The notes under the pieces are model-generated. The model worked only from the letters and a program-made list of their open reading frames with translations, was not told where the DNA came from and ran no database searches. A stretch of 64,000 bases of DNA, from contig SUVA01000003.1 in NCBI GenBank assembly GCA_015062245.1, forward strand, positions 21,372 to 85,371. The letters are read 5' to 3'. The translations under genes and the position numbers were made by a program. Source of the stretch: Alphaproteobacteria bacterium. Its GTDB lineage: Bacteria > Pseudomonadota > Alphaproteobacteria > CAAHEQ01 > UBA3637. Shown piece by piece: positions 18,684-27,893 of this stretch; position 1 is the first letter of the stretch, and every line of letters starts with the position of its first letter.

Positions 18684-18712
18684 AAATCCCCCACTGCTTG
18701 GTGGGGGATAAG
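18684..18712. terminator. Bidirectional terminator hairpin (atcccccac-tgcttg-gtgggggat) between convergent genes
   Basis: Perfect 9-bp GC-rich stem flanked by A/T runs on both sides. Confidence 0.4.
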
Positions 18713-18728
18713 TGAGGTATAAATCCAC

Positions 18729-19919
18729 TTATGGATCCCGACAAATGGCGGAGTTGTTGAGGTAGCCACTGTAGCGAGAGTCGTCGAGGACAGCACCGCT
18801 GTTGTGGGAGACAAAACGCGTGCCACAGGAACCTGACTTGCTATTATCCGCTAGCCAAAGACTACCAGATTCTCCAAAGACATCTGTACTTCTAATCGCT
18901 ACATTTGTGGCCGAACAATCACTATCTGATCCGCCATTGCAAATACAAGGTTTCGTTGCGTAATTTGAGTGTGAACTGTTAAAATAACAGTGTGTATTCG
19001 TGCCACTGTCCGCCAGCCCTAAATCAGACATAGTCACAAGTTGTTTGCCATGCGCTTGACACAGGTTGGACGCACTCCACCAGTTCATTGTGCCTGAACT
19101 CTTATACACCGTTAAAGCACCACCGGGCAGGTTGAGGGTTTTGACCGTAAAATCATTTGTATCATCCAATTCTCCCTTATCCGTACACGTTCCCGTCCCC
19201 GGATTCGTACAACTACCATCACTGAACTTGCAGTATTTTGTCGTATCCACATTGCCTTCGGCATCCTTACAATCGCCGTTCTGGGTACACCCACTCGTTG
19301 GTTTGGCGCAGATGTATGTTGAGGTATTCGTCCCCTTTGCACAATACGTCCCTTCGGCGCAACATTCTGTCCCGCACATAAAGACACCGTTCGGACATTT
19401 GCATTCGCCGTGGAAACACTTTAGTCCGTCATCACATGTTACATTCTTACAGGCTGGGTCAAACTTTCCCCCTGTTGGGCTTTTTTCGCCTTCGGCCTCT
19501 GTGGTTGCCAAGTTTTTGTAATAAGTGATGGTAGCATTGCCTGATTCATCACAAACAACATCACGCACCATACCGCCTTTGGAATTTTTCATTTGTGTGC
19601 AAACATCTTTATCAATGCCCGATAGTGTTAAATTAAATTGAGTGCCGTTATCGGTAAGAGTGGTTGCATAGCCTGAGTTGGCAAAATCGGTGATTGTTGA
19701 TGGTAATTTCCCGTCATTGGTCATGGCATAAGCCGACACCGTTGTTGCCATCATGGATGCTTTATGCAAGGCCTCATTGGCTTTGTGTTTTTCCACCGCT
19801 TTGGAATAGGCCGATATGCCACCAACACTCAACACGCCCACAATGGCCAGCACGCCCAGCATTTCAACCATACTGCGCCCCTTTTGACTTCTTTTATCAT
19901 TTTTGTTTGTTTTATTCAT
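18729..19919 (-). CDS. Type IV pilin-like N-terminus fused to Cys-rich EGF-like repeats and a C-type-lectin-like C-terminal domain (396 aa); candidate adhesin
   Basis: Class-III signal-like N-terminus QKG|RSMVEMLGVLAIVGVLSVGGISAY with Glu at +5 and a hydrophobic helix; central CxxGxC repeats (CDDGLKCFHGECKCPNGVFMCGTECCAEGTYC); C-terminal WWSASNLCQAHGKQLVTMSDL resembles a CTLD start. Confidence 0.5.
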   Translation of the reverse strand: MNKTNKNDKRSQKGRSMVEMLGVLAIVGVLSVGGISAYSKAVEKHKANEALHKASMMATTVSAYAMTNDGKLPSTITDFANSGYATTLTDNGTQFNLTLSGIDKDVCTQMKNSKGGMVRDVVCDESGNATITYYKNLATTEAEGEKSPTGGKFDPACKNVTCDDGLKCFHGECKCPNGVFMCGTECCAEGTYCAKGTNTSTYICAKPTSGCTQNGDCKDAEGNVDTTKYCKFSDGSCTNPGTGTCTDKGELDDTNDFTVKTLNLPGGALTVYKSSGTMNWWSASNLCQAHGKQLVTMSDLGLADSGTNTHCYFNSSHSNYATKPCICNGGSDSDCSATNVAIRSTDVFGESGSLWLADNSKSGSCGTRFVSHNSGAVLDDSRYSGYLNNSAICRDP

Positions 19920-19939
19920 AATTTTTACTCCCTTTATTT

Positions 19940-20140
19940 AAACAAAACACGCCTTGATGAGAGGCGGGTTGGAAGTTCGAAACTATAAACGCTATAGCAT
20001 TACATATTTGGGTTGGATAACCCTTATTTTGTAACCATCCAACCCTGACAGTTGGATTTTACGTCTTTCAGACGGCGTTTGAAGGATTTCGAAGCCTCCA
20101 CTGCGAGAATCACCCGACAGCAGTTCCAGTATAAAATGAT
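19940..20140. other. GC-enriched, hairpin-rich intergenic block; candidate structured ncRNA or long 5' leader (unclassified)
   Basis: Local GC clearly above flanking AT-rich DNA; nested inverted repeats (gggttggataaccc / ggttggat...atccaacc, cgtctgaaagacg); no ORF. Confidence 0.2.
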
Positions 20141-20170
20141 TAAATTTTTTTTGCAAGTAAAAAATATGCT

Positions 20171-20199
20171 TGACATTATAAAATCATTTGTGTAAAATA
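20171..20199 (+). promoter_or_regulatory. Near-consensus sigma70 promoter (TTGACA-17-TAAAAT) immediately upstream of the tRNA-His 5' remnant (probable native tRNA-His promoter)
   Basis: ttgacattataaaatcatttgtgtaaaat read directly; it drives only the truncated tRNA fragment at 20216. Confidence 0.4.
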
Positions 20200-20209
20200 T
20201 AAACTATTC

Positions 20210-20256
20210 ACCAGATGGCGGATGTAGCTCAGTTGGTTAGAGCGCTGGTTTGTGGT
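20210..20256 (+). repeat. Distal attachment-site repeat: 47-nt exact copy of the 5' half of tRNA-His (leader through anticodon loop)
   Basis: accagatggcggatgtagctcagttggttagagcgctggtttgtggt is identical to 27809-27855; the sequences diverge right after the anticodon GTG. Confidence 0.7.
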
Positions 20257-20619
20257 TCCGCTTTTCAACTTCCAAATTTTCTGATAAACACCGCATAAAA
20301 GACAAGAGCAGAATTCTTGTATTGAATTTGTTATAAGTCCTGTCATTATTGTTCTATCTTGAAATTTGAATGAATGGAAAGGTATCTTTTGGGCGCTTAA
20401 ATTTTGGAAATTCAGAACGCCTAAAAGCTCAAACCTCATTTTCTATCCCTAAACTCTCCCTAAACGATGGAATAATCACTTTTGTAAATGGGAAAAAGGA
20501 CTTTTTTCTTTGGCATTTACATTAGCCTCATTAGCCGCATTTGCCCCTTACATTAATATTATGCCCGAAATTTTTGAAAATGTCAAAAGAAATTAAGGGG
20601 TTATTTAAAAATAAACGCG

Positions 20620-21108
20620 TTATTTTTCACGAAATGATAGCATAAAATCCAAATTTCTTTTTGTAATCCAAAAAGAAAAAAGTAATCCTAAGAATGAAAT
20701 AAGTGCATAATAGGAAGAGATAACTAAACATACTTTCCATTCTGTTGTGGAAAACAAAAAGGCAAAAATTATTGATAGTAAGCAGGTCATAATTGTCCAT
20801 GATAGAAAATTGAGTAAATTTTTCAATGGTCGATATTGTTCTTTTTTCCAGCCATCTTTGTATTCTGATTTTAAGTAATTGGTGTAATCTTCTTTATCAT
20901 ATAATTTTTCTTTCATATGTGGTATTAGGAAACTTTGCATTGTAAATAAGATGGAGGCAATAGCAAAATATGCAGAAATCCAACTTCCTGTTCCATTAGG
21001 ATCTTTTGGAACTAATGGAATGAGGGTCAATACAAAAGATAATTCCTTTACTTTGAAAGAAATAACCAAAGGAATAATAAAAGTAAATATTGTAAAAAAT
21101 ACCTTCAT
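20620..21108 (-). CDS. Small integral membrane protein (162 aa, ~4 TM), island cargo
   Basis: Four hydrophobic segments (FFTIFTFIIPLVISF, ISAYFAIASILFTMQSFLI, LSWTIMTCLLSIIFAFLF, LVISSYYALISFLGLLFSFWI); 3 nt downstream of the 292-aa gene. Confidence 0.5.
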   Translation of the reverse strand: MKVFFTIFTFIIPLVISFKVKELSFVLTLIPLVPKDPNGTGSWISAYFAIASILFTMQSFLIPHMKEKLYDKEDYTNYLKSEYKDGWKKEQYRPLKNLLNFLSWTIMTCLLSIIFAFLFSTTEWKVCLVISSYYALISFLGLLFSFWITKRNLDFMLSFREK

Positions 21109-21111
21109 TTT

Positions 21112-21990
21112 CTAAATAATCCCTAAATCTCTACAGATAACATTTGATTTTACAAAATCTAACATATGAACAATAGTTGGATGGGTACTTAACTCTTCTG
21201 TATTAAATTTTTTTAATTCCCGTGTTACGTCATCGTAATCATAAGATGTTAATGGCCTAAAAATATTGTCTAAATTTATAACTTCCCTTTCTCCTTCTTC
21301 ATTTTTCCCAACCACTTTCAATTTTTTAGTACCTAATTCTTTTAAGTCAAGAATTTTAGGGATTATATCAGATAAAGGAGCCTTCCTTTTAAAAATTATT
21401 TGTTTTTGTTCGGATTTTACAAAATCAGGAGTAAAAATAGAACGTTTTGTAGATTGCTCTAAATACGATATTGAAGTGATTGAAAAAAACCTATTCAATG
21501 CCATAGAAGCTTCTTCAGCCTTTATTATTTGGATGCAAGAAATCTTATTTTTTCTCTTAAAGCTCAGTGACGAGCTGTCGTAGCCTTTTAGTGAAACAAA
21601 ATCATCAAAAAACTTTCTTAAAATTTTTTCTAACACAGATAATGAAGCAGAATTAGCATATGTCAACCATATCCCTGATGTAGTATTTTTATTCAAAATG
21701 AAAAAGTTGTATTCCGCACCATCTTTGATTTCGGCTATTTCTGTAGAATATCCCCCATTAGGATTTACTACTACTCTGCAATGTGCTGAGTAGTCTCGAG
21801 AAGAAAAAAGTAGTCCGGCGTAATAAGAGGAGGAAGCAACTGGTTGAATAAAAAGATTTCTCTTTTTTTTACAGATATCAATTGGTCCTTCTTTTTGAGA
21901 AGTTATATAATCAAAAAGATCTGAAATGGAAAAATCGATATCTTTTTGCTTTTTTAAAATAATTTTAAAGGGATATGCGTTTATATTCAT
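21112..21990 (-). CDS. Hypothetical cytoplasmic protein (292 aa), island cargo, no recognisable domain
   Basis: Long ORF co-directional with and between the XRE gene and the membrane-protein gene; composition typical of the element (very AT-rich, Lys/Ser/Phe-rich). Confidence 0.45.
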   Translation of the reverse strand: MNINAYPFKIILKKQKDIDFSISDLFDYITSQKEGPIDICKKKRNLFIQPVASSSYYAGLLFSSRDYSAHCRVVVNPNGGYSTEIAEIKDGAEYNFFILNKNTTSGIWLTYANSASLSVLEKILRKFFDDFVSLKGYDSSSLSFKRKNKISCIQIIKAEEASMALNRFFSITSISYLEQSTKRSIFTPDFVKSEQKQIIFKRKAPLSDIIPKILDLKELGTKKLKVVGKNEEGEREVINLDNIFRPLTSYDYDDVTRELKKFNTEELSTHPTIVHMLDFVKSNVICRDLGII

Positions 21991-22050
21991 CTAAGACTCC
22001 AAAAAAAACTGTACTATTTATAGCAGAATTTTAAGAAAAAATCAAATTGT

Positions 22051-22389
22051 TTATTTCATTTCCAAAAGGGCCTCAATCTGTTTAAGGGCGGTTTTGAGTG
22101 TCTTTTCATCCTGTCCTTCTAATAATCGGGTAATAGTCTTTAATGTGTCTGAATGTGGTTTGTTCTGTGTGGATATATCAGTCAATAAATCTTGAACGGG
22201 GACATTGAGTGCGTTAGCAAAGGAAAGAAGTGTTGTAATTTTGGGGTCACTGAGTCCACGTTCTACATTTGAAATGGTATTTATCATTTTACCGGATACT
22301 TCGGCAAATTCCTCTTGTGAAAGTCTTTTTTGTTTGCGTAAAACGGCAATACGTTTACCAAGCGTTTGTAAAAATACTTTATTTGTCAT
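22051..22389 (-). CDS. XRE-family HTH transcriptional regulator (Cro/cI-like)
   Basis: LRKQKRLSQEEFAEVSGKMINTISNVERGLSDPKITTLLSFANALNVPVQDLL = classic HTH_XRE; start placed at MTNKVFLQ (the upstream in-frame extension lacks an RBS). Confidence 0.7.
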   Translation of the reverse strand: MTNKVFLQTLGKRIAVLRKQKRLSQEEFAEVSGKMINTISNVERGLSDPKITTLLSFANALNVPVQDLLTDISTQNKPHSDTLKTITRLLEGQDEKTLKTALKQIEALLEMK

Positions 22390-22465
22390 AATACCTCTTT
22401 TGTTATGGTAGTATTTTCCTATTTTGCTGTGTAAAAGACCATAACGGTAAAATGTGTATTTTGGC

Positions 22466-22494
22466 TTGACATTTCTAAAAATACATATTATACT
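22466..22494 (+). promoter_or_regulatory. Sigma70 promoter (TTGACA-17-TATACT) for the PD-(D/E)xK-like gene
   Basis: cttgacatttctaaaaatacatattatact read directly. Confidence 0.45.
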
Positions 22495-22519
22495 GTGTTT
22501 ATTGATTACAATAAACACA
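22494..22519. promoter_or_regulatory. Perfect 11-4-11 palindromic operator (TGTGTTTATTG-atta-CAATAAACACA) between -10 and RBS
   Basis: Exact inverted repeat read directly; positioned to block transcription; the divergent XRE repressor is the obvious candidate binder. Confidence 0.45.
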
Positions 22520-22531
22520 TGGGAGTATGAA

Positions 22532-23467
22532 ATGAACGGTCCAAACATCTTCGATTATGCTACCAGTGAGCTCTCTCAAGATGCTTTTTTGTGTTATCTG
22601 TTAGCCTTTGGAAAAGAAAAATATAAAATGGATTTTCCGAAAGAGTATATGCTTGCTCATAAGTTTCTTGCAAAATGTGGTATTGATGAAAAAGAGGAAA
22701 TATTGTCCGTTGGACAACAGGTGGAACATATTGATGTTTTAATTATTACAACTTCCCACATTCTTATTATTGAAGATAAAACTTATACTGATGAACATGA
22801 TGATCAAATAATTCGTTATGTGAAAAATATGAGGAAATCTGAAGAAAAATTTTTAAATGATAAAAAAATTAAGGTATGTTTTTTAAAAACAGGCGATTAT
22901 GTTAAATCCTATTCTTCAAGTGATGAAAGTGTTTTACAAAATAAAGATTGTTGTTCTTTAAGACGTAAAAATTTATTGGAATTACTAAAGGATTATTATA
23001 AGTGTAATTTAGTATTTGAAATGTTTTATAAACGACTTCTTTCCGTTGAAGAAGCTATAGAACAATGTGATAGTGAAAATATATTTGATTGGAATCGCTA
23101 TAAATGGTTCGATTTCCTTTATAATACTTTAATTGAGAAAAAGAAAGTTTTTGACATAAAATGGGTTCATAATCCTAATGGCGGTTTTTATGGTTGTTGG
23201 TTTGGTTCTCATAAACTAGGAGAAATTGAGAAGTATAAACAAATTGAAATTCATTTCAATGAAAAGGGAACAGAATTTGTAGATTTGTGCTTAAAATGTT
23301 CATCTGAAAGTAAAGAGAAAACTCAGAAATATAAATCAGATATGGAAAAGTGGCAAAAGGAATCTGGTTTTAATCGTCCTGATCGTTGGCGTATTGGTCG
23401 GACAACAACCTATGCCACAAAACAAGCAATCAATGTTCGGGATATTCAAAACTTTATCAAAAAATAA
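22532..23467 (+). CDS. PD-(D/E)xK nuclease-like protein (312 aa), island cargo
   Basis: E...D...E-x-K arrangement (SELSQDAF ... HIDVLIITTSHILIIEDKTY) with the hydrophobic-strand context typical of restriction-endonuclease-fold nucleases; GGGAG RBS 6 nt before the ATG. Confidence 0.4.
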   Translation: MNGPNIFDYATSELSQDAFLCYLLAFGKEKYKMDFPKEYMLAHKFLAKCGIDEKEEILSVGQQVEHIDVLIITTSHILIIEDKTYTDEHDDQIIRYVKNMRKSEEKFLNDKKIKVCFLKTGDYVKSYSSSDESVLQNKDCCSLRRKNLLELLKDYYKCNLVFEMFYKRLLSVEEAIEQCDSENIFDWNRYKWFDFLYNTLIEKKKVFDIKWVHNPNGGFYGCWFGSHKLGEIEKYKQIEIHFNEKGTEFVDLCLKCSSESKEKTQKYKSDMEKWQKESGFNRPDRWRIGRTTTYATKQAINVRDIQNFIKK

Positions 23468-23496
23468 CAACTGAAAGGAAAGGAAGATGGCAAAAG

Positions 23497-23616
23497 TATA
23501 TGTAACACAGTATGATTATCAAGCAGATTTAAAAGTTTATAAAGTACAAAATGACTATCAGGCAAAATGGCAAACAAGCAATCCTTTTATTAGTCGATTA
23601 GGATAATATAACTCAT
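23497..23616 (+). CDS. Small ORF (39 aa, MAKVYVTQYDYQADLKVYKVQNDYQAKWQTSNPFISRLG) with strong RBS
   Basis: aggaaaggaag RBS then ATG; below the ORF-track cutoff; followed by a terminator. Confidence 0.25.
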
Positions 23617-23652
23617 AATAAGGCATGTCTTTGACTTTGAAAAAAATTTTAA

Positions 23653-23688
23653 AGGATAGGGCGGAAAAACTCCGCCCTTTTTCTTTCT
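23653..23688. terminator. Bidirectional terminator (gggcggaaaaactccgccc flanked by T-runs) between convergent island genes
   Basis: Read directly. Confidence 0.45.
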
Positions 23689-25925
23689 TACACGGAATCA
23701 AAAACTTCTGGATTTACTATATAAAGTGTTTTTTGACGACCCCTTGATTCCCCTGGTCGAGATATTTTTTTAGTTTTTAACCATCCATATTTTATCAAAA
23801 TAGAGGTTGCTTTTTCCGCTTGTTCCTTTCGCCGAATTCCAGGAACAACTGCGTTGTAATAGATATCCCTTAAGGTAAAGCTCTCAATTTTGTTGTTTAA
23901 GATATATTGAGCTAATTTTCTGGCTTCTTGCTGATATTCTGGCGCCATATAAATTCCATAAACACGTTTTGCCATAGGAAATAAGTACTGTTCATAAAAA
24001 TTTATAGCAGTATTAAGAGCATTTAACCCAATGAAATCAGGCTCTGGATTTTCGCTATCTGCCCACCATAAATATTCAAACATCAAACTTAAACGAACAA
24101 CAACACCCTGTCCTTTATTCAAGAAAAAACCCAATTTTTCATCTTCCCGTTCAATCGCTTGTGCAAAATGGACGTGTTTTAAGTACCACTGATTAAACAT
24201 TTCCTGAGCCTCATCAGAAAATTTTAATTGCTTTTTGGGATTCTCAGCATTATCCCCATAAGGATTGACTAAATTGAATAATTTTTTAAGTGCACGGAAC
24301 ACTTTTTCGTTATTCGGAGCTACTTTGGGGATAGCAGGGGCTACAACCTCTGGATAAGCCCAAAGAAAACGAGGGACAAGCCCGTCTTCGGCGTTACCCA
24401 AAAAGGCGTCTATGACCCTTTTAGGCTGGATAGTGCCAAAAATTGAAATAAGCAAATGTGGTACTTCAATTCTATCTTCCCCAAATTTTACACGATCGGA
24501 AGAATAATATTTACCATTATAGGTTTCAAGCCAAAAACTTTTTTCAGCGTTGCCACTGGTGTATCGATTCATTCCTGCTAACCATCCATACAGCTCGTCT
24601 CGAAAAACGATTGCCCCAGTTGTATTGTTTTGTAAGTTTTGAAGAAGTGCTTCCTGCGTTGTATCACAAAAACAAAAACGATATGATTGTGGTTTTGGAG
24701 GCTTATTCAAATTATCGGGAATCGTTTGTTTTTTATCTGGATTTTTTTTGATATCCTTATACCAGTTCTTTAACTTTTTTTCATAAGCTATATTTTCACC
24801 TTTCCAAACGTTATAAGCCCTCTCAAACTCTGGCTTACGTGATTTTTCCAAATCACATAAAATGCTTTTTATAGGACTGATAGTCGGCGTTTTTCTTGAG
24901 CTCGGATCTCCAACAATTCCCATAAAAAAACAGGGGTATTCTACAAAACCAGGCCATGGGGAAAGGCTGCGGGCTAATCCCATACAGGCACCCGTTGCTG
25001 CTATTAAAGAAAATCCAACATAGTCAACTGCTGCATTACAACTGGCAGCTGTTTCCACTACCCATTCTTCCATAGTTTGAAAACAATCGGTTTTCATCCT
25101 TGGAGCAGGTTCAATAATTTTTTCCTTTAAAATGGATAAATCAAGTTCTTGGAAATCTGGATTATCCAAGGTTTCAGAAAAAGAGATTGAATTTTCTAAT
25201 GTTCTTTCTACTTCTTCAATTTCAAGTCCACTTTGTAAAGCTGACTTAATAATTTTGTTATATATATTTGCCATATTTAAACTCCTTTCTTTGGCAAGTT
25301 GTTGGATGCGAATTGATTTTCGCAAAAGTGTATCATTGCGTTTACCCTCTGGGGCATTTGAAATGTCTTCCAAAAGTGCTGATATATCGTTAATTCTGGC
25401 GTTTTTGCCTGTTATAATTTCTAGCAACCATTCAGGCGCTTCTGGAAAAGTTAAATCATTAGGATTTACATTTTCCCAATGATATTGGTTACCGTTTTCA
25501 TGAACGGAAAAGGGGGCAACAATATATCCCCCGTCTGCACGTATATCAATATGCGGGGCAATTTTACTGGCGCTTGACCTAATAGTTATATTTTCGGGGT
25601 ATTTAAAATAAAGGTGTTTTCCTCGCCCTGTTAAAACGGCTGGGGCATTTAATTTACCATACTCTTTTTCCAAAAGTTGAAGTGATTCAAATCCTTCTTG
25701 TTCGTCAATATCAACTACGAAAATACCATTTTCTTCCCCAGTTGGGAGACCAATATTACAAGGGGAAAATTTTTCACTCCATTCCGTTATTTGTTTTAAG
25801 TCTGTTGTGGCTCCCTTAAAACCTGTTTTAATAAGGGGAGCCTTTCCACGATATTTCACGGGGAAGACTTTCATATTTAACCGAACATATTGTTTGGCGA
25901 TGTTATAAAAGTTGTTTTCAATCAT
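23688..25925 (-). CDS. Bifunctional DNA primase/polymerase (AEP Prim-Pol N-terminal domain) with C-terminal P4-alpha-like/DUF3987-type region; element replication protein
   Basis: VVDIDEQEGFESLQLLEKEYGKLNAPAVLTGRGKHLYFKYPENITIRSSASKIAPHIDIRADGGYIVAPFSVHENGNQYHWEN matches the Prim-Pol signature (lDiD...tpsGGrHlyf...G.DvRgdGGYvvaPpSvh.sG..Y.w); 745 aa. Confidence 0.75.
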   Translation of the reverse strand: MIENNFYNIAKQYVRLNMKVFPVKYRGKAPLIKTGFKGATTDLKQITEWSEKFSPCNIGLPTGEENGIFVVDIDEQEGFESLQLLEKEYGKLNAPAVLTGRGKHLYFKYPENITIRSSASKIAPHIDIRADGGYIVAPFSVHENGNQYHWENVNPNDLTFPEAPEWLLEIITGKNARINDISALLEDISNAPEGKRNDTLLRKSIRIQQLAKERSLNMANIYNKIIKSALQSGLEIEEVERTLENSISFSETLDNPDFQELDLSILKEKIIEPAPRMKTDCFQTMEEWVVETAASCNAAVDYVGFSLIAATGACMGLARSLSPWPGFVEYPCFFMGIVGDPSSRKTPTISPIKSILCDLEKSRKPEFERAYNVWKGENIAYEKKLKNWYKDIKKNPDKKQTIPDNLNKPPKPQSYRFCFCDTTQEALLQNLQNNTTGAIVFRDELYGWLAGMNRYTSGNAEKSFWLETYNGKYYSSDRVKFGEDRIEVPHLLISIFGTIQPKRVIDAFLGNAEDGLVPRFLWAYPEVVAPAIPKVAPNNEKVFRALKKLFNLVNPYGDNAENPKKQLKFSDEAQEMFNQWYLKHVHFAQAIEREDEKLGFFLNKGQGVVVRLSLMFEYLWWADSENPEPDFIGLNALNTAINFYEQYLFPMAKRVYGIYMAPEYQQEARKLAQYILNNKIESFTLRDIYYNAVVPGIRRKEQAEKATSILIKYGWLKTKKISRPGESRGRQKTLYIVNPEVFDSV

Positions 25926-25951
25926 TTTTTATCCTTTCATTTAGATTGAAT

Positions 25952-26365
25952 TTATTCTTCACAATTAAAAAGTCTATCCAAATAGCTACAAGCTGCTTCA
26001 ATGGTGTAATATACTTTTTTGTTTACACACACGTATTGGGAATGATCATCTCTTGTAATAACTCCTTCCAGCATAGAATCTTTATTTCGTAAAGTATTGC
26101 AATTTAGAAATCCGCAAACTTCACAGAATTTTGTTCTTGCGATTGTTTCACCATATGTCTTGATTTTTGCCTTTAATTTGTATAACAAATTTGGGCTGAT
26201 ATAATTTTTGATCATTTTAAAGACCTTTGTTTTTAGGTTATGGGGATCCCAGATTAAAACCACTGTTTTTCTGTTCCCACCTAAAAACGCAGCAAATCTT
26301 ATTTTCACCTTTTTATTTTTATTTATTTTATAAGTTTTTGATTTTAAATAATTATATCTAATCAT
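25952..26365 (-). CDS. Hypothetical Cys-containing protein (137 aa) between integrase and primase
   Basis: ORF only; CEVCGFLNC ... CVNKK ... C pattern suggests a zinc ribbon; start overlaps integrase stop. Confidence 0.35.
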   Translation of the reverse strand: MIRYNYLKSKTYKINKNKKVKIRFAAFLGGNRKTVVLIWDPHNLKTKVFKMIKNYISPNLLYKLKAKIKTYGETIARTKFCEVCGFLNCNTLRNKDSMLEGVITRDDHSQYVCVNKKVYYTIEAACSYLDRLFNCEE

Positions 26366-27542
26366 TTTCTGACTCCGAATTGAGCGTGCGAACAGCTTTA
26401 CGCAAAGAATTATTGGATAAATGTGAATATCTGAGGGTCATGGAAATATCAGAATGCCCTAAAAGTTCTTTAACCACAAAAATAGAATTTCCTTTTTCCA
26501 CAAGGCGACTTGCATACGTATGTCTTAATGTGTGAAAGACAACCTTTTGCCGTCTATCAGTGATTCCCTGATTGAGGCCCAATTTTTTCACGGCTCTTTC
26601 ATAAGTTCTTGATACATGTTCAATTTTTTTACCATTTCGGCTTGGAAAAAGGTGTTGATTTGTTTCTTTGTTTGGAAGTTTTGAAACTTCTTCAAAAACA
26701 CGATCTGTCATAAAGGCAAAACGGTTTTTCTTGTTTTTTGTATCTTTTAGAGTGAATTCTTTTTGATTCAAATTGACATCCGCCCAAGTCAGATTAAAAA
26801 TTTCTCCTGCTCGTAATCCACAGTCTGCCGAAATTAGAGCCATTAAATATACTTCATAGCTTCTCTTTTTAAGTTCTGTAAATAGAGCTTCCAATTCTTC
26901 AGCTGTTAAATAGCGTATGCGCCGATTGTCTTCTTTTTTACATTTTATTTTTGACGCAGGATTTTCCAAGCCAAAGTATAAATTTTCTTTTTTTGCAAAA
27001 TTGAACACTTGGCGCATAAGGGCAATCGCATAATTTTGACTTCGGACAGATAGTTGTTGATCTGCCATTATATTTTGCACCCTAATGAGGCTATTGCGGC
27101 TTATTTTTTCTAAGGGTAAAGAGCCAAAATAAGGTTCAAGCCATTTTTTAAATAAAACAAGCTCTCTATCATTTGTACTCTTTTTATGATATATTTGGCA
27201 ATAAGGCATATAACAAAGAGAAAAGATTTCCCTAAAAGTTTTGCTTTGAATACAATTCCTCTTATTACGTTCAAGAAGTTCATTGTTTTTCTTTTGTTGT
27301 TGTTGGGCTATTTCTTTTAAAGAGAATGCTGTACCAGCTTTTATACGTTGTTTTAAATCCCCTAATATATGATAAGCCTTTTCAGCTGTCCAACCCAGCG
27401 ATTTAAAACCAATCGGTTCTTCGTATTGTTTACCATTAACAGTATAGCGGATTGAAAAATAAATATCTTTCTTTCCTTGAGAGACACATTCTCTTTTTCT
27501 TACCCCTGGAAAATTTTTTGTCATTTTTACACTTCCTTTCAT
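26358..27542 (-). CDS. int: Tyrosine-type site-specific integrase
   Basis: Catalytic region HTLRHTYASRLVEKGNSIFVVKELLGHSDISMTLRYSHL (R...HxxR...Y); N-terminal SAM-like/arm-binding region; lies 270 nt from tRNA-His, reading away from it. Confidence 0.85.
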   Translation of the reverse strand: MKGSVKMTKNFPGVRKRECVSQGKKDIYFSIRYTVNGKQYEEPIGFKSLGWTAEKAYHILGDLKQRIKAGTAFSLKEIAQQQQKKNNELLERNKRNCIQSKTFREIFSLCYMPYCQIYHKKSTNDRELVLFKKWLEPYFGSLPLEKISRNSLIRVQNIMADQQLSVRSQNYAIALMRQVFNFAKKENLYFGLENPASKIKCKKEDNRRIRYLTAEELEALFTELKKRSYEVYLMALISADCGLRAGEIFNLTWADVNLNQKEFTLKDTKNKKNRFAFMTDRVFEEVSKLPNKETNQHLFPSRNGKKIEHVSRTYERAVKKLGLNQGITDRRQKVVFHTLRHTYASRLVEKGNSIFVVKELLGHSDISMTLRYSHLSNNSLRKAVRTLNSESEND

Positions 27543-27769
27543 GTGTTTTTTTGTTTGACAAAATTATCCCATATTTAAGAGAGAAAAACACGTCACTCAA
27601 TGCGTCACTCAGCGTTTTTCGTAAGTAATACATAACAAGTTTGATAAATATTTTAGGACAGCTTAATTTTTTAATCCCTAAATACCCCCTAAATTTTTGA
27701 GAATACATTTTAAAAATCTTCAAAAATAAAGGAAAATAGGTTTGAGAGGATAAAAATAGATTTTTTACT

Positions 27770-27798
27770 TGACTTTTGGTAAAAAATCTGCGAAAATA
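27770..27798 (+). promoter_or_regulatory. Weaker promoter-like sequence (TTGACT-17-GAAAAT) driving the intact tRNA-His; sits inside the element side of the repeat
   Basis: acttgacttttggtaaaaaatctgcgaaaat read directly. Confidence 0.3.
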
Positions 27799-27815
27799 AG
27801 GCTTATCAACCAGAT

Positions 27816-27893
27816 GGCGGATGTAGCTCAGTTGGTTAGAGCGCTGGTTTGTGGTACCAGATGTCGTCGGTTCGAGTCCGATCTTCCGCCCCA
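27816..27893 (+). tRNA. tRNA-His (anticodon GTG) with G-1 and encoded CCA
   Basis: Cloverleaf folded by eye: G-1, acceptor GCGGATG/CTTCCGC, D-arm GTAGCTCAGTTGGTTAGAGC, anticodon loop TTGTGGT, T-arm GTCGG-TTCGAGT-CCGAT, discriminator C, CCA. Confidence 0.85.

What the first reader, a model, noticed from the sequence alone, without database searches (positions are those of the whole stretch)
18729..19919. Pilin-like N-terminus fused to EGF-like Cys repeats and a C-type-lectin-like domain
The N-terminus (basic leader ending in G, then RSMVEMLGVLAIVGVLSVGGISAY with Glu at +5) looks like a type IV pilin/pseudopilin class-III signal. The remaining ~330 residues are a Cys-rich module with CxxGxC repeats. 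They end in WWSASNLCQAHGKQLVTMSDL..., reminiscent of a C-type lectin domain. Such a fusion would present a eukaryote-like glycan-binding domain on a pilus tip or shaft. It is a plausible host-attachment adhesin for a symbiont.
Basis: partly seen in the sequence, partly recalled or inferred. Interest (0 to 1): 0.65.

Follow-up and report, generated by a model that had tools for sequence, protein, structure and literature searches.

The report
Pilin carrying a lectin-fold adhesin
This gene from an uncultured gut alphaproteobacterium encodes a pilus subunit whose outer end is a cysteine-rich stalk topped by a C-type-lectin-fold domain; it is one of many interchangeable, probably sticky pilus subunits in these bacteria, and a previously undescribed folded RNA leader precedes it.

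Summary
The ORF (18729-19919, minus strand, 396 aa) is real and has at least 1,453 homologues, all from uncultured gut Alphaproteobacteria. The pilin reading holds. G-1 and Glu+5 are invariant. Residues about 10-126 align to the bundlin/PilS-type major pilin of a type IVb pilus cluster in related genomes (hhalign 99.8%), and that pilin carries the same G|RSMVEMLGVLAI N-terminus. The C-terminal 150 residues model confidently, and all 50 best PDB fold matches are C-type-lectin-like domains. The best-superposing one is the calcium-free Bdellovibrio Bd2740 fibre tip. No Pfam Lectin_C or EGF match exists, and the EPN/QPD/WND sugar-binding motifs are absent, so glycan binding is unsupported. The middle part is a disulphide-rich stalk, not demonstrable EGF. 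The gene is a monocistronic orphan among housekeeping genes. No pilus machinery or prepilin peptidase was found in the window or 10 kb around it. Best reading: a modular type IVb minor pilin displayed at the pilus tip, and one of at least 14 paralogues per genome with swapped C-terminal modules. Unexpectedly, a roughly 190-nt covarying RNA leader with a pseudoknot and a terminator precedes this gene and 37 other sites, at least 28 of them family genes. It matches no Rfam family.

The parts
20128..20156 (-). Promoter-like site TTGCAA-17-TATACT. It would give a 5' leader of about 200 nt.
   Evidence: 9 of 12 matches. The -10 box lines up with a conserved TA-rich block at the 5' end of alignment A3 (T12 and A13 nearly invariant). 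The transcription start is inferred.
19936..20125 (-). Conserved structured leader RNA. Helices: P0 20057-20051 with 20043-20037; P1 20044-20036 with 19975-19967; P2 20035-20030 with 20004-19999; P3 20023-20019 with 20014-20010; P4 19997-19993 with 19987-19983; long-range pseudoknot 20093-20087 with 19982-19976.
   Evidence: nhmmer finds 36 copies. Covariance model R1 finds 38 hits and only this one in the window (19936-20057). On structure-blind MAFFT alignments, 92.7% of cells pair against 75.3% when shuffled, and 21 of 27 pairs show double changes. The pseudoknot is 87.5% paired, with 6 of 7 pairs covarying. The fold z-score is -4.36. Rfam gives no match.
19950..19966 (-). Terminator-like hairpin CGCCU-CUCAUCA-AGGCG plus U-run inside the leader, about 25 nt before the ribosome-binding site. 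This is the putative expression platform.
   Evidence: The hairpin plus T-run is conserved, with stem covariation, in A4. In the variants read, its 5' arm abuts or overlaps the P1 3' strand by 1-3 nt.
19928..19933 (-). Shine-Dalgarno sequence AGGGAG.
   Evidence: Read directly; 8 nt upstream of the ATG.
18729..19919 (-). CDS of the modular prepilin (396 aa plus stop).
19878..19919 (-). Leader peptide, residues 1-14: basic and ending in Gly-1. Cleavage is predicted at G14|R15.
   Evidence: Sequence. G14 is invariant. Cleavage itself is inferred.
19515..19877 (-). Pilin module, residues 15-135: hydrophobic alpha1N with Glu+5, the long alpha1 helix (20-67), a four-stranded sheet, and the Cys107-Cys123 pair.
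   Evidence: hhalign to type IVb major pilins gives 99.8% probability and E 5e-28 over family columns 10-126. Those pilins hit BfpA, TcpA and PilS structures. PilE hits are weak. Pfam N_methyl scores 15.6 bits, below the 21.2 cutoff.
19452..19514 (-). Linker, residues 136-156 (NLATTEAEGEKSPTG...). Model confidence is low here, and paralogues swap their C-terminal modules at this point.
   Evidence: pLDDT is 65-66 for residues 141-160 and below 50 for 149-152. Many homologues align only to residues 1-150 and then diverge.
19185..19451 (-). Disulphide-rich stalk, residues 157-245, with 15 Cys in small beta-hairpin modules.
   Evidence: Cys positions. pLDDT is 82-95. Weak profile similarity to CREMP modules, E 0.007. 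EB module and Dickkopf_N appear in a few members; no EGF.
18732..19184 (-). C-terminal compact C-type-lectin-like domain, residues 246-396: WWSAxNxC at alpha1, WLAD at beta2, invariant Cys287 and Cys393, and a variable Cys-containing long loop at 301-352.
   Evidence: AF2 domain model, pLDDT 88.9 and pTM 0.85. All 50 top PDB matches have the C-type-lectin-like fold, including 8oks_B with probability 1.0 and TM 0.64. Viral C-type lectin proteins also match. Weak profile hits to mannose-receptor and PLA2R lectin domains fall at residues 264-308. No EPN, QPD or WND.
18686..18709 (-). Intrinsic terminator after the stop codon; the gene is monocistronic.
   Evidence: 9-bp stem with 6 GC pairs, followed by a T-run.

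Best explanation
The gene encodes a modular minor pilin of a type IVb pilus.

Shown:
- A 14-residue basic leader ends in Gly, and Glu is at +5 of the predicted mature protein.
- The following roughly 120 residues are homologous to the bundlin/PilS/TcpA-type major pilin. In related gut Alphaproteobacteria that pilin sits in a chromosomal cluster resembling the R64 thin-pilus and BFP systems: a TcpQ-like protein, a secretin, PilO, an assembly ATPase, a platform protein, the pilin and a second ATPase.
- That major pilin carries the same G|RSMVEMLGVLAI N-terminus as this protein.
- After a flexible linker come a disulphide-rich stalk and a compact C-type-lectin-fold domain that lacks the calcium and sugar motifs.

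Inferred:
- A prepilin peptidase cleaves at G14|R15.
- The alpha1 helix docks the protein into the pilus, most probably as the first, tip-located subunit, as with PilV, TcpB and CofB.
- The stalk holds the lectin-fold domain outward as an adhesin. Its ligand is unknown and could be on host mucus or cells, or on other microbes.

The organism keeps many such genes. At least 4 are named from this MAG and at least 14 occur in one relative. They share the N-terminal module but carry different C-terminal modules, which gives a repertoire of alternative pilus tips.

Each gene is an independent transcription unit. This one and at least 28 others start with a roughly 190-nt structured leader whose terminator probably gates expression by attenuation. 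The signal it responds to is unknown.
For: - The ORF is real and the family is large.
- G14, R15, S16, M17, E19, M20 and L21 are invariant.
- Profile-profile match to type IVb major pilins: probability 99.8%, E 5e-28, extending past the hydrophobic helix to residue about 117.
- Those major pilins hit BfpA 1zwt (1e-12), TcpA 8uhf (3e-5) and PilS 1q5f (5.5e-5). They match Pfam PilS at 1.7e-17 and Bundlin at 1.7e-11.
- Type IVb clusters occur in L081, L078, L069, L083, L086 and L087. Their ATPase is 83-97% identical across the 120 best clusters. These include CAG:495 and the sibling MAGs E7019 and E7010.
- The AF2 model shows alpha1 plus a four-stranded sheet, then confident C-terminal domains.
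- The lectin-like fold is found in all 50 top PDB hits and in viral C-type lectin proteins. Bd2740 is a solved calcium-free variant of this fold used as a fibre-tip adhesin (PMC10769870).
- Module swapping occurs at about residue 150. Family members range from 114 to 759 residues after the Gly. One MAG has at least 14 genes.
- The same C-terminal domain is reused in 622 cluster representatives with other architectures.
- The lectin-domain loop and core are the most variable parts, at 34-35% identity against 81% for alpha1N.
- Modular pilins are an established kind and are expected at the tip (PMC8179133).
- Leader RNA.
Against: - No pilus machinery and no prepilin peptidase lie in the 64-kb window or in the 10-kb flanks of the contig.
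- No A24 peptidase homologue appears in 1.36 Mb around family genes or in the type IVb clusters.
- The type IVb cluster was not shown for this MAG itself.
- Pfam N_methyl (15.6 against 21.2 bits) and TIGR02532 (12.9 against 16.3) are below their curated cutoffs.
- Arg at +1 is unusual.
- Fold-match E-values are weak, 8.5e-3 at best.
- Pilus incorporation, tip location, adhesion and attenuation are all inferred.
- Family members of 2,000-3,000 aa, and a 4,335-aa protein with a variant pilin-like N-terminus, are hard to picture passing a secretin.
Confidence: 0.7

Rival explanations
1. A canonical calcium-dependent, eukaryote-like C-type lectin presented on a pilus to bind host glycans.
For: The fold matches animal lectin-like domains. 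Weak profile hits to mannose-receptor, PLA2R and mosquito C-type lectins fall on the WWSAxNxC...G..LV segment. The organism lives in the gut.
Against: No Pfam Lectin_C hit in any of 58 members. EPN, QPD and WND are absent from all 35 aligned domains. The long loop that holds the calcium site in true lectins is replaced by a variable Cys-rich loop. The best-superposing match is a bacterial calcium-free variant. Most domains with this fold bind proteins or other ligands, not sugars (established knowledge).
Confidence: 0.15
2. The pilin-type signal is used only for export and anchoring. The protein is displayed or released without being built into a pilus. Archaeal sugar-binding proteins with class III signals work this way, and so would a secreted substrate.
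For: There are dozens of paralogues, some enormous: 2,070 and 3,034 aa, and a 4,335-aa protein with a variant pilin-like N-terminus. The genes are dispersed far from any pilus operon. The same lectin-fold domain also occurs behind ordinary Sec signals.
Against: The pilin module extends well beyond the signal and is homologous to the assembling major pilin through its globular part. Alpha1N is the most conserved segment and matches the major pilin almost residue for residue. That is expected if it must pack into the same filament. In a diderm, a cleaved pilin left in the inner membrane cannot reach the surface without the secretin route (established knowledge).
Confidence: 0.15
3. An ordinary Sec signal or N-terminal membrane anchor on a periplasmic Cys-rich protein; the resemblance to pilins is coincidental.
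For: The curated pilin-motif models are sub-threshold. ISA|Y at residues 35-38 could be read as a signal-peptidase I site (sequence).
Against: G-1 and E+5 are invariant across the family, and the GRSMVEML pattern occurs at least 589 times in species-representative genomes. Homology to type IVb pilins has 99.8% probability. The identical motif sits on the major pilin inside pilus clusters. The hydrophobic stretch is about 21 residues, too long for a Sec h-region.
Confidence: 0.04
4. It is a pilus-tip adhesin, but it targets other bacteria, for aggregation, DNA transfer or predation-like contact, and not the animal host.
For: The best-superposing structural match is the prey-recognition fibre tip Bd2740 of Bdellovibrio. 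The closest pilus systems (R64, TP114) use PilV tips to pick bacterial partners (PMC9045228, abstract seen). TrbC-like genes lie just upstream of the type IVb cluster. A large, variable repertoire suits many different cell surfaces.
Against: No conjugation or predation genes accompany the gene. Ankyrin-repeat proteins in the window and in relatives hint at dealings with eukaryotes. There is no binding evidence either way.
Confidence: 0.3

Closest known systems
PilV minor pilins of conjugative type IVb thin pili (R64, TP114)
   Same: The pilus gene set resembles the R64 type: PilO (PAP_PilO), a secretin, an ATPase, a platform protein and a PilS-type major pilin. A conserved pilin N-terminal part is joined to alternative C-terminal adhesin parts that set binding specificity (PMC9045228; established knowledge of the R64 shufflon).
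   Different: Variants here are separate dispersed genes, each with its own promoter and leader, and not one gene rearranged by a shufflon recombinase. No pilV or pilU gene lies in the cluster. The C-terminal part is a Cys-rich stalk plus a lectin-fold domain. No sequence similarity to PilV was detected. The system is chromosomal and sits in anaerobic gut Alphaproteobacteria.
TcpB and CofB, the initiator or tip minor pilins of type IVb pili
   Same: A pilin domain followed by a linker and extra beta-rich domains. There is one large minor pilin per system, which primes assembly and sits at the tip (PMC5207764; CofB as described in PMC8179133).
   Different: Those are single genes inside the pilus operon. 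This one belongs to a family of a dozen or more orphan genes per genome. The extra domains have different folds. Initiator function was not tested.
Modular pilins PilB (vWA) and PilC (concanavalin-like lectin) of Streptococcus sanguinis
   Same: A small pilin module with a grafted functional module that gives adhesion. The class was defined in PMC8179133.
   Different: Those are type IVa-like pili of a monoderm, their modules are recognisable by InterPro, and each is a single copy. Database signatures do not detect the modules here, so the published census would have missed them.
Bd2740 C-terminal domain (PDB 8oks), tip of a Bdellovibrio MAT fibre
   Same: [quoted passage not shown]
   Different: Bd2740 is carried on a trimeric phage-tail-fibre-like protein, not a pilin. 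Sequence identity is 11%. Trimerisation is not known here.
Animal C-type-lectin-like domains and Link modules (LOX-1, CD94, CLEC9A, LYVE-1, TSG-6)
   Same: Overall fold, the W..A...C start of alpha1, a WIGL-like WLAD strand, and Cys positions that fit the alpha1-beta5 disulphide.
   Different: No Pfam membership and no calcium or sugar motif. The long loop is replaced by a Cys-rich variable loop. TM-scores are only 0.35-0.55.
Riboswitch-type leaders that control pilin genes, for example the c-di-GMP-II riboswitch upstream of Clostridioides difficile pilA1 (own knowledge; topic of PMC6366702)
   Same: A structured 5' leader with an intrinsic terminator directly upstream of a pilin gene.
   Different: No similarity to any Rfam family, including both c-di-GMP classes. 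The architecture differs: a three-way junction plus a loop-junction pseudoknot. The ligand, if there is one, is unknown.

Membership tests
Type IV pilin / class III signal peptide (PF07963, TIGR02532) | Short positively charged leader ending in Gly at -1 | tested here: met
   MNKTNKNDKRSQKG. G14 is invariant in 58 sequences.
Type IV pilin / class III signal peptide (PF07963, TIGR02532) | Glu at +5, followed by about 20 hydrophobic residues forming alpha1N | tested here: met
   R15-S-M-V-E19 and then MLGVLAIVGVLSVGGISA. E19 is invariant. The AF2 helix spans 20-67.
Type IV pilin / class III signal peptide (PF07963, TIGR02532) | Score above the curated model cutoffs | tested here: not met
   N_methyl scores 15.6 bits against 21.2. 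TIGR02532 scores 12.9 against 16.3. 45 of 58 members hit N_methyl, with a best E-value of only 0.0017.
Type IV pilin / class III signal peptide (PF07963, TIGR02532) | Pilin fold: long alpha1 packed on an antiparallel beta-sheet, with a C-terminal disulphide | tested here: inconclusive
Type IV pilin / class III signal peptide (PF07963, TIGR02532) | Cognate prepilin peptidase (Peptidase_A24) in the genome | not testable with these tools
   None in the window, its flanks, the type IVb clusters or 1.36 Mb of related loci. Whole genomes could not be scanned.
Type IV pilin / class III signal peptide (PF07963, TIGR02532) | Pilus assembly machinery in the same genome | tested here: inconclusive
   A complete type IVb cluster is present in related species and in the sibling MAGs E7019 and E7010. 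It was not found for this MAG.
Type IVb pilins (bundlin / PilS / TcpA group) | Homology of the globular pilin domain to type IVb major pilins | tested here: met
   hhalign gives probability 99.8% and E 5e-28 over columns 10-126 against pilins. Those pilins hit BfpA, TcpA and PilS structures and Pfam PilS and Bundlin.
Type IVb pilins (bundlin / PilS / TcpA group) | Residue +1 is not Phe, and the leader is longer than in type IVa pilins | tested here: met
   Arg at +1 and a 14-residue leader; homologues have leaders of up to about 80 residues. The criterion comes from established knowledge.
Type IVb pilins (bundlin / PilS / TcpA group) | Direct Pfam PilS or Bundlin match | tested here: not met
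   No hit for this protein. Three of 58 members match PilS weakly, at E>=0.0044.
C-type lectin-like domain (PF00059 Lectin_C) | The domain fold: two helices, two beta-sheets, N- and C-terminal strands paired | tested here: met
   The domain model has pLDDT 88.9. All 50 top PDB hits and most viral hits have this fold. Probability reaches 1.0 and target-normalised TM 0.64, but the best E-value is only 8.5e-3.
C-type lectin-like domain (PF00059 Lectin_C) | Sequence-profile membership | tested here: not met
   No Lectin_C hit at E<=10 for this protein or at E<=1 for 58 members. Only weak PDB profile hits, E 0.02-0.4.
C-type lectin-like domain (PF00059 Lectin_C) | Conserved Cys pair linking alpha1 to the last strand, and a WIGL-type motif | tested here: inconclusive
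   C287 and C393 are invariant, and W355 in WLAD is nearly invariant. Disulphide bonding cannot be read from the tool output.
C-type lectin-like domain (PF00059 Lectin_C) | Calcium and carbohydrate site (EPN or QPD plus WND) | tested here: not met
   Absent from the protein and from all 35 aligned domains.
EGF-like domain | Six-Cys EGF pattern recognised by Pfam EGF models | tested here: not met
   No EGF family hit in 58 members at E<=1. Only EB module (4 members), Dickkopf_N (2) and CREMP at E 0.007.
Modular pilin (sense of PMC8179133) | N-terminal pilin module, a linker, and an additional module not specific to pilus biology | tested here: met
   The C-terminal domain also occurs without any pilin module.
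Riboswitch or attenuator leader (for the upstream RNA) | Conserved secondary structure supported by covariation | tested here: met
   with shuffle and slide controls on alignments made without reference to structure.
Riboswitch or attenuator leader (for the upstream RNA) | Expression platform and alternative pairing | tested here: inconclusive
   A terminator hairpin plus U-run is conserved. The P0 alternative to P1 shows runs of 8.4 against 5.6 in shuffles, with 30 of 31 sequences at 6 or more. Switching was not demonstrated.
Riboswitch or attenuator leader (for the upstream RNA) | Specific ligand or protein effector | not testable with these tools
   The downstream genes are adhesins and give no metabolic clue.

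The most novel reading that the evidence does not exclude
Uncultured gut Alphaproteobacteria run a repertoire of a dozen or more alternative type IVb pilus-tip adhesins. These include giant multi-lectin-domain proteins with pilin-like N-termini. Each gene is switched individually by a new class of riboswitch: the roughly 190-nt pseudoknotted leader found here. It would sense a gut or host-derived small molecule and so couple what the cell sticks to with what it senses.
Probability: 0.25. Interest if true: 0.8.

Novelty: new variant of a known kind. Interest (0 to 1): 0.62.

Why it matters
Gut Alphaproteobacteria of this group are found in gut MAGs from humans, ruminants and rabbits. The type IVb ATPase of one cluster alone is indexed in about 3,000 blocks of the assembly collection. 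They appear here only as MAGs, and literature searches found nothing on their function.

The finding gives them a concrete surface biology. They have a conserved retractile type IVb pilus and a large, fast-diverging set of modular tip subunits. These subunits are built from a pilin module, a disulphide stalk and a calcium-free lectin-fold head. The modules escape all current domain signatures, which supports the published suspicion that censuses of modular pilins undercount them.

The leader RNA is a well-supported candidate for a new cis-regulatory RNA class. It is attached to adhesin genes and not to metabolic genes, which is unusual and can be tested directly in vitro.

Tried and rejected
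- Pfam and NCBIfam on the protein and on 58 homologues gave no Lectin_C, EGF or above-threshold pilin model.
- Foldseek with the whole three-domain model was dominated by designed helical proteins and was uninformative. A separate model of residues 246-396 was needed.
- Pilus machinery and a prepilin peptidase were sought by several routes and not found:
  - All larger window ORFs were scanned: 50 proteins, all housekeeping or mobile-element genes.
  - Contig flanks beyond both window ends were checked.
  - Neighbourhoods of paralogues were checked.
  - A regex for GspE Walker A found the clusters in relatives.
That sample is of pilin neighbourhoods, not of genomes.
- The search for this MAG's own type IVb ATPase listed the siblings E7019 and E7010 but not E7021. 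NCBI names carry locus tags only for hypothetical proteins, so absence from the list proves nothing.
- Diversity-generating retroelement idea: lectin-fold domains are their usual targets, and Mtd appeared among the weak hits. No template-repeat copy of any part of the gene exists in the window, and no reverse-transcriptase family turned up among the window ORFs scanned. Rejected for this locus.
- Membership of the gene in the adjacent integrase/Prim-Pol island is rejected. The island's direct repeats (20194-20259 and 27793-27858) place the gene about 275 nt outside it.
- Rfam at the gathering threshold and at E<=10 gave no family for the leader.
- Literature searches found no description of this family, of the leader, or of pili in this bacterial group.
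Full report
**1. The observation**

One search lists an ORF at exactly 18729..19919 on the minus strand. It is 396 aa long and starts with ATG. AGGGAG lies 8 nt upstream. A strong hairpin plus T-run terminator follows the stop at 18709-18686.

The N-terminus is MNKTNKNDKRSQKG|RSMVEMLGVLAIVGVLSVGGISAY. The protein has 24 Cys, 15 of them in residues 157-245. WWSASNLCQAHGKQLVTMSDL is at residues 280-300.

The gene is not a chance ORF. 1,453 proteins match it at E<=1e-3. They include an identical NCBI entry (E7021_01580, Alphaproteobacteria MAG) and at least three paralogues named from the same MAG: E7021_02505, _02705 and _05625.

Residues 41-135 are not Cys-rich. Only one exact CxxGxC exists. 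The WWSAS motif opens the last domain and does not end the protein.

**2. The organism and the neighbourhood**

The window has 31-42% G+C. It carries ordinary chromosomal genes:
- PFOR, succinyl-CoA-ligase-like genes, CdaA, GAPDH, UvrB, PheST and AspS;
- PlsX, a MreBCD-PBP2-RodA block and lytic transglycosylases;
- a 1,646-aa ankyrin-repeat protein.

No pilus gene or prepilin peptidase is present there. None lies in the 10 kb beyond either window end.

The gene sits between an RHH_4 gene and a 7.6-kb integrase/Prim-Pol/DUF3987 island. The island is bounded by a 66-nt direct repeat containing the 5' half of tRNA-His (20194-20259 and 27793-27858). The gene lies about 275 nt outside that island.

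Of the 80 best loci, 77 are titled as uncultured Alphaproteobacteria; the MAG names point to human, ruminant and rabbit guts. One further locus is titled an uncultured proteobacterium and another an Acidaminococcaceae bin, the latter probably a binning error.

Paralogues elsewhere are also orphans among housekeeping genes.

**3. The N-terminal module is a type IVb pilin module**

- G14, R15, S16, M17, E19, M20 and L21 are invariant in 58 homologues. That gives Gly at -1 and Glu at +5.
- Curated motif models are sub-threshold: N_methyl 15.6 against 21.2 bits, and TIGR02532 12.9 against 16.3. 45 of 58 members touch N_methyl only weakly. Direct PDB hits to PilE are weak, at E about 0.02.

The decisive evidence is indirect. 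In related genomes (L081, L078, L069, L083, L086, L087) a 184-218-aa protein with the same G|RSMVEMLGVLAIIGVLS N-terminus lies inside a pilus cluster. The cluster comprises:
- a TcpQ-like protein, a secretin and PAP_PilO;
- a protein with no Pfam match;
- a 560-aa T2SSE ATPase, which JGI names bfpD;
- a T2SSF platform protein and a PilS-like protein;
- this pilin, which matches Pfam PilS at 1.7e-17 and Bundlin at 1.7e-11;
- a second T2SSE ATPase of about 330 aa.

A profile of these pilins hits solved BfpA (1e-12), TcpA (3e-5) and S. Typhi PilS (5.5e-5). The same profile aligns to the present family with hhalign probability 99.8% and E 5e-28. The alignment covers family columns 10-126. It therefore runs through the amphipathic helix, the following loop, and the first strands with their conserved Cys, and is not limited to the hydrophobic segment.

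The AF2 model agrees in topology: helix 20-67, four strands between 86 and 134, and the C107/C123 pair.

The ATPase of the cluster is 83-97% identical across the 120 best clusters. These include "Proteobacteria bacterium CAG:495" and two sibling MAGs from the same study, E7019 and E7010.

I could not show the cluster for the E7021 MAG itself. I found no Peptidase_A24 gene anywhere I could look. Whole genomes cannot be scanned with these tools.

**4. The middle part**

Residues 136-156 are a low-confidence linker. Many homologues share residues 1-150 at 60-92% identity and then carry unrelated C-terminal parts.

Residues 157-245 are modelled confidently (pLDDT 82-95) as small beta-hairpin units rich in disulphides. 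Pfam sees no EGF domain. Only a few members touch the EB module or Dickkopf_N. The family profile weakly resembles the repeat of a cysteine-rich eggshell membrane protein (E 0.007).

"EGF-like" is therefore not supported as membership. "Disulphide-rich stalk" is the safe description.

**5. The C-terminal domain has the C-type-lectin-like fold but is not a demonstrable lectin**

A separate model of residues 246-396 has pLDDT 88.9 and pTM 0.85. All 50 best Foldseek matches in the PDB are C-type-lectin-like domains or Link modules: LOX-1, LYVE-1, CD94, NKR-P1B, CLEC9A, Ly49, MGL, CD23, Endo180, TSG-6 and aggrecan G1. The best-superposing match is the C-terminal domain of Bdellovibrio Bd2740 (8oks_B), with probability 1.00 and target-normalised TM 0.64.

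E-values are modest, 8.5e-3 to 0.14. The viral library returns poxvirus and herpesvirus C-type lectin proteins.

The family profile gives weak hits to mannose-receptor, PLA2R and mosquito C-type lectins precisely on the WWSAxNxC...G..LV segment.

Invariant C287 and C393 fit the alpha1-to-last-strand disulphide. WLAD, with its nearly invariant W355, fits the WIGL strand.

Against a lectin function:
- There is no Pfam Lectin_C match.
- None of 35 aligned domains has EPN, QPD or WND.
- Bd2740 was solved as a calcium-free variant of this fold. It serves as one of many alternative adhesive fibre tips (PMC10769870).

The long loop (301-352) and the beta core are the most variable parts of the protein, at 34-35% identity to the query. 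Alpha1N is at 81%.

**6. A family of interchangeable modules**

In 1.36 Mb of related loci I counted 105 genes with the GRSMVEML-type motif. Of these, 99 are complete ORFs. They run from 114 to 759 residues after the Gly and hold up to 88 Cys. One MAG has at least 14, which is a lower bound.

A profile of the C-terminal domain finds 622 cluster representatives at E<=1e-3. Among the 142 newly returned best hits, the domain sits:
- on proteins with the GRSMVEML-type N-terminus, including ones of 3,034 and 2,070 aa with four copies each;
- on a 4,335-aa protein with 13 copies and a variant pilin-like N-terminus (GRTMLEML);
- behind ordinary Sec signals followed by a conserved AFAFGGGG...GVDxIGVH motif;
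- alone.

Two paralogues of this MAG are mosaic at the DNA level. Identity is about 87% over the first 420 nt and again over nt 841-1020, and 52-83% in the other 60-nt windows. No template repeat of the kind used by diversity-generating retroelements is present in the window.

**7. Mechanism proposed**

Shown: the signal motif, homology to assembling type IVb pilins, the domain order and the fold.

Inferred:
- cleavage at G14|R15 by a prepilin peptidase;
- docking through alpha1 into the type IVb filament, most probably as the tip or initiating subunit. Type IVb minor pilins behave this way (TcpB, PMC5207764; PilV, PMC9045228; CofB as summarised in PMC8179133). The modular-pilin paper makes the same argument;
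- outward presentation of the lectin-fold head on the disulphide stalk as an adhesin.

The ligand is unknown. Host mucus or cells and other microbes are both open.

**8. An unexpected regulatory element**

The 200 nt upstream of the gene are conserved upstream of family genes in many different genomes.
- nhmmer converges on 36 copies. At least 28 are followed within about 210 nt, mostly within about 35 nt, by a GRSMVEML gene. One precedes a 152-aa Sec-signal protein that consists of the lectin-fold domain alone.
- A covariance model finds 38 hits in 1.35 Mb and only one in the window (19936-20057). It finds one upstream of the same MAG's paralogue (L004 500-626) and none upstream of the major pilins in the clusters.

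On MAFFT alignments made without reference to structure:
- A three-way junction (P1, P2-P3, P4) plus a terminator hairpin is 92.7% paired, against 75.3% in shuffles. 21 of 27 pairs show changes on both sides. Pairing falls to 33-39% when partners are slid by 1-3 columns.
- A seven-base long-range pairing joins the loop of an upstream hairpin to the junction just before the P1 3' strand. It is 87.5% paired, and 6 of 7 pairs covary. One pair, for example, reads AU 14, GC 13, CG 1.

An upstream segment can pair with the 5' strand of P1 instead of its normal partner (P0). Mean runs are 8.4 against 5.6 in shuffles, and 30 of 31 sequences reach 6 or more. This alternative tracks the covarying P1 sequence.

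The terminator hairpin plus U-run (19966-19950) starts at or inside the P1 3' strand. The minimum-energy fold of the window copy shows P0 plus the terminator, which would be an "off" state. Its z-score is -4.36.

Rfam 15 has no match, either at gathering scores or at E<=10.

I read this as an attenuator or riboswitch-type leader in which forming P1 and the pseudoknot would weaken the terminator. The switching and the effector are inferred. The architecture is typical of ligand-binding RNAs, but a protein or RNA effector is equally possible.

**9. Comparison and novelty**

The protein works like PilV, TcpB and CofB, and like the modular pilins of S. sanguinis. It meets the definition of a modular pilin.

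It differs from these in five ways:
- the nature of the grafted modules, a disulphide stalk plus a calcium-free lectin-fold domain that current signatures do not detect;
- being one of many dispersed paralogues, not one operon gene or one shufflon-rearranged gene;
- Arg at +1;
- its host group;
- its dedicated structured leader.

It is not a member of Pfam Lectin_C or EGF by test. I rate it a new variant of a known kind. The leader RNA is the part most likely to be new in kind.

**10. Verdict**

Confidence in the modular type IVb minor-pilin explanation is 0.7. Interest is 0.62.

Noticed in passing
window 19936-20138 (minus strand); also 37 other sites, e.g. L061 3390-3514, L015 9863-9984, L004 500-626: A conserved leader RNA of about 190 nt, with a three-way junction, a loop-junction pseudoknot, an alternative P0 hairpin and a terminator. 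It lies directly upstream of this gene and of at least 28 other family genes. Covariation is strong and Rfam has no match. It is a candidate new cis-regulatory RNA class.
   Followed up: yes
window 20194-20259 and 27793-27858; island about 20260-27816: A 7.6-kb integrated element: tyrosine integrase, Prim-Pol/DUF3987 primase-helicase, an HTH regulator, a PD-(D/E)XK protein and unknowns, at 31% G+C. It is bounded by a 66-nt direct repeat that duplicates the 5' half of tRNA-His up to the anticodon loop. The pilin gene lies just outside its left end.
   Followed up: partly
L081 1531-11702; L086 4940-15310 (also L078, L069, L083, L087): A conserved chromosomal type IVb pilus cluster in related gut Alphaproteobacteria: TcpQ-like protein, secretin, PAP_PilO, an unknown protein, a 560-aa ATPase, T2SSF, a PilS-like protein, a bundlin/PilS-type major pilin with the GRSMVEML N-terminus, and a second ATPase of about 330 aa. 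It has no prepilin peptidase gene and no large minor pilin gene.
   Followed up: yes
proteins P0266, P0271, P0284, P0291, P0300, P0329, P0371 and others: A second set of proteins carries the same lectin-fold domain behind an ordinary signal peptide. That is followed by a conserved motif...(S/A)AFAFGGGGG... then GVD(S/A)IGVH. This may be an unrecognised sorting or anchoring module.
   Followed up: no
proteins P0243 (3,034 aa), P0245 (2,070 aa), P0251 (4,335 aa): Giant proteins with pilin-type N-termini (GRSMVEMI; GRTMLEML) and 4 to 13 copies of the lectin-fold domain. It is hard to see how these could be pilus subunits in the usual sense.
   Followed up: no
L050 19495-19680 and the ORF that follows: One copy of the leader RNA precedes a 152-aa protein with a normal Sec signal that consists of the lectin-fold domain alone. 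The leader therefore tracks the adhesin module and not only the pilin module.
   Followed up: partly
window 465-5405; L019 2986-3960: A 1,646-aa protein with ankyrin repeats and otherwise no recognised domains, and a smaller ankyrin protein in a relative. Ankyrin repeats in bacteria often mark dealings with eukaryotic cells.
   Followed up: no
window 18729-19919 compared with L004 641-1762: Two paralogues of the same MAG are mosaic. Nucleotide identity is about 87% over nt 1-420 and 841-1020, and 52-83% in the other 60-nt windows. This suggests recombination or gene conversion between family members.
   Followed up: partly
L086 1613-2786 and 16562-19444: Two TrbC-like (conjugative-pilin-like) genes lie just upstream of the type IVb cluster. 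A VWA / PP2C phosphatase / Ser-Thr kinase trio is conserved just downstream of it, also in L081.
   Followed up: no
L008 (JAZLLX010000012.1): One family member sits on a 3.3-kb contig binned into an Acidaminococcaceae MAG. Of the 80 best loci, 77 are titled Alphaproteobacteria and one an uncultured proteobacterium, so this is probably a binning error and not a transfer.
   Followed up: no
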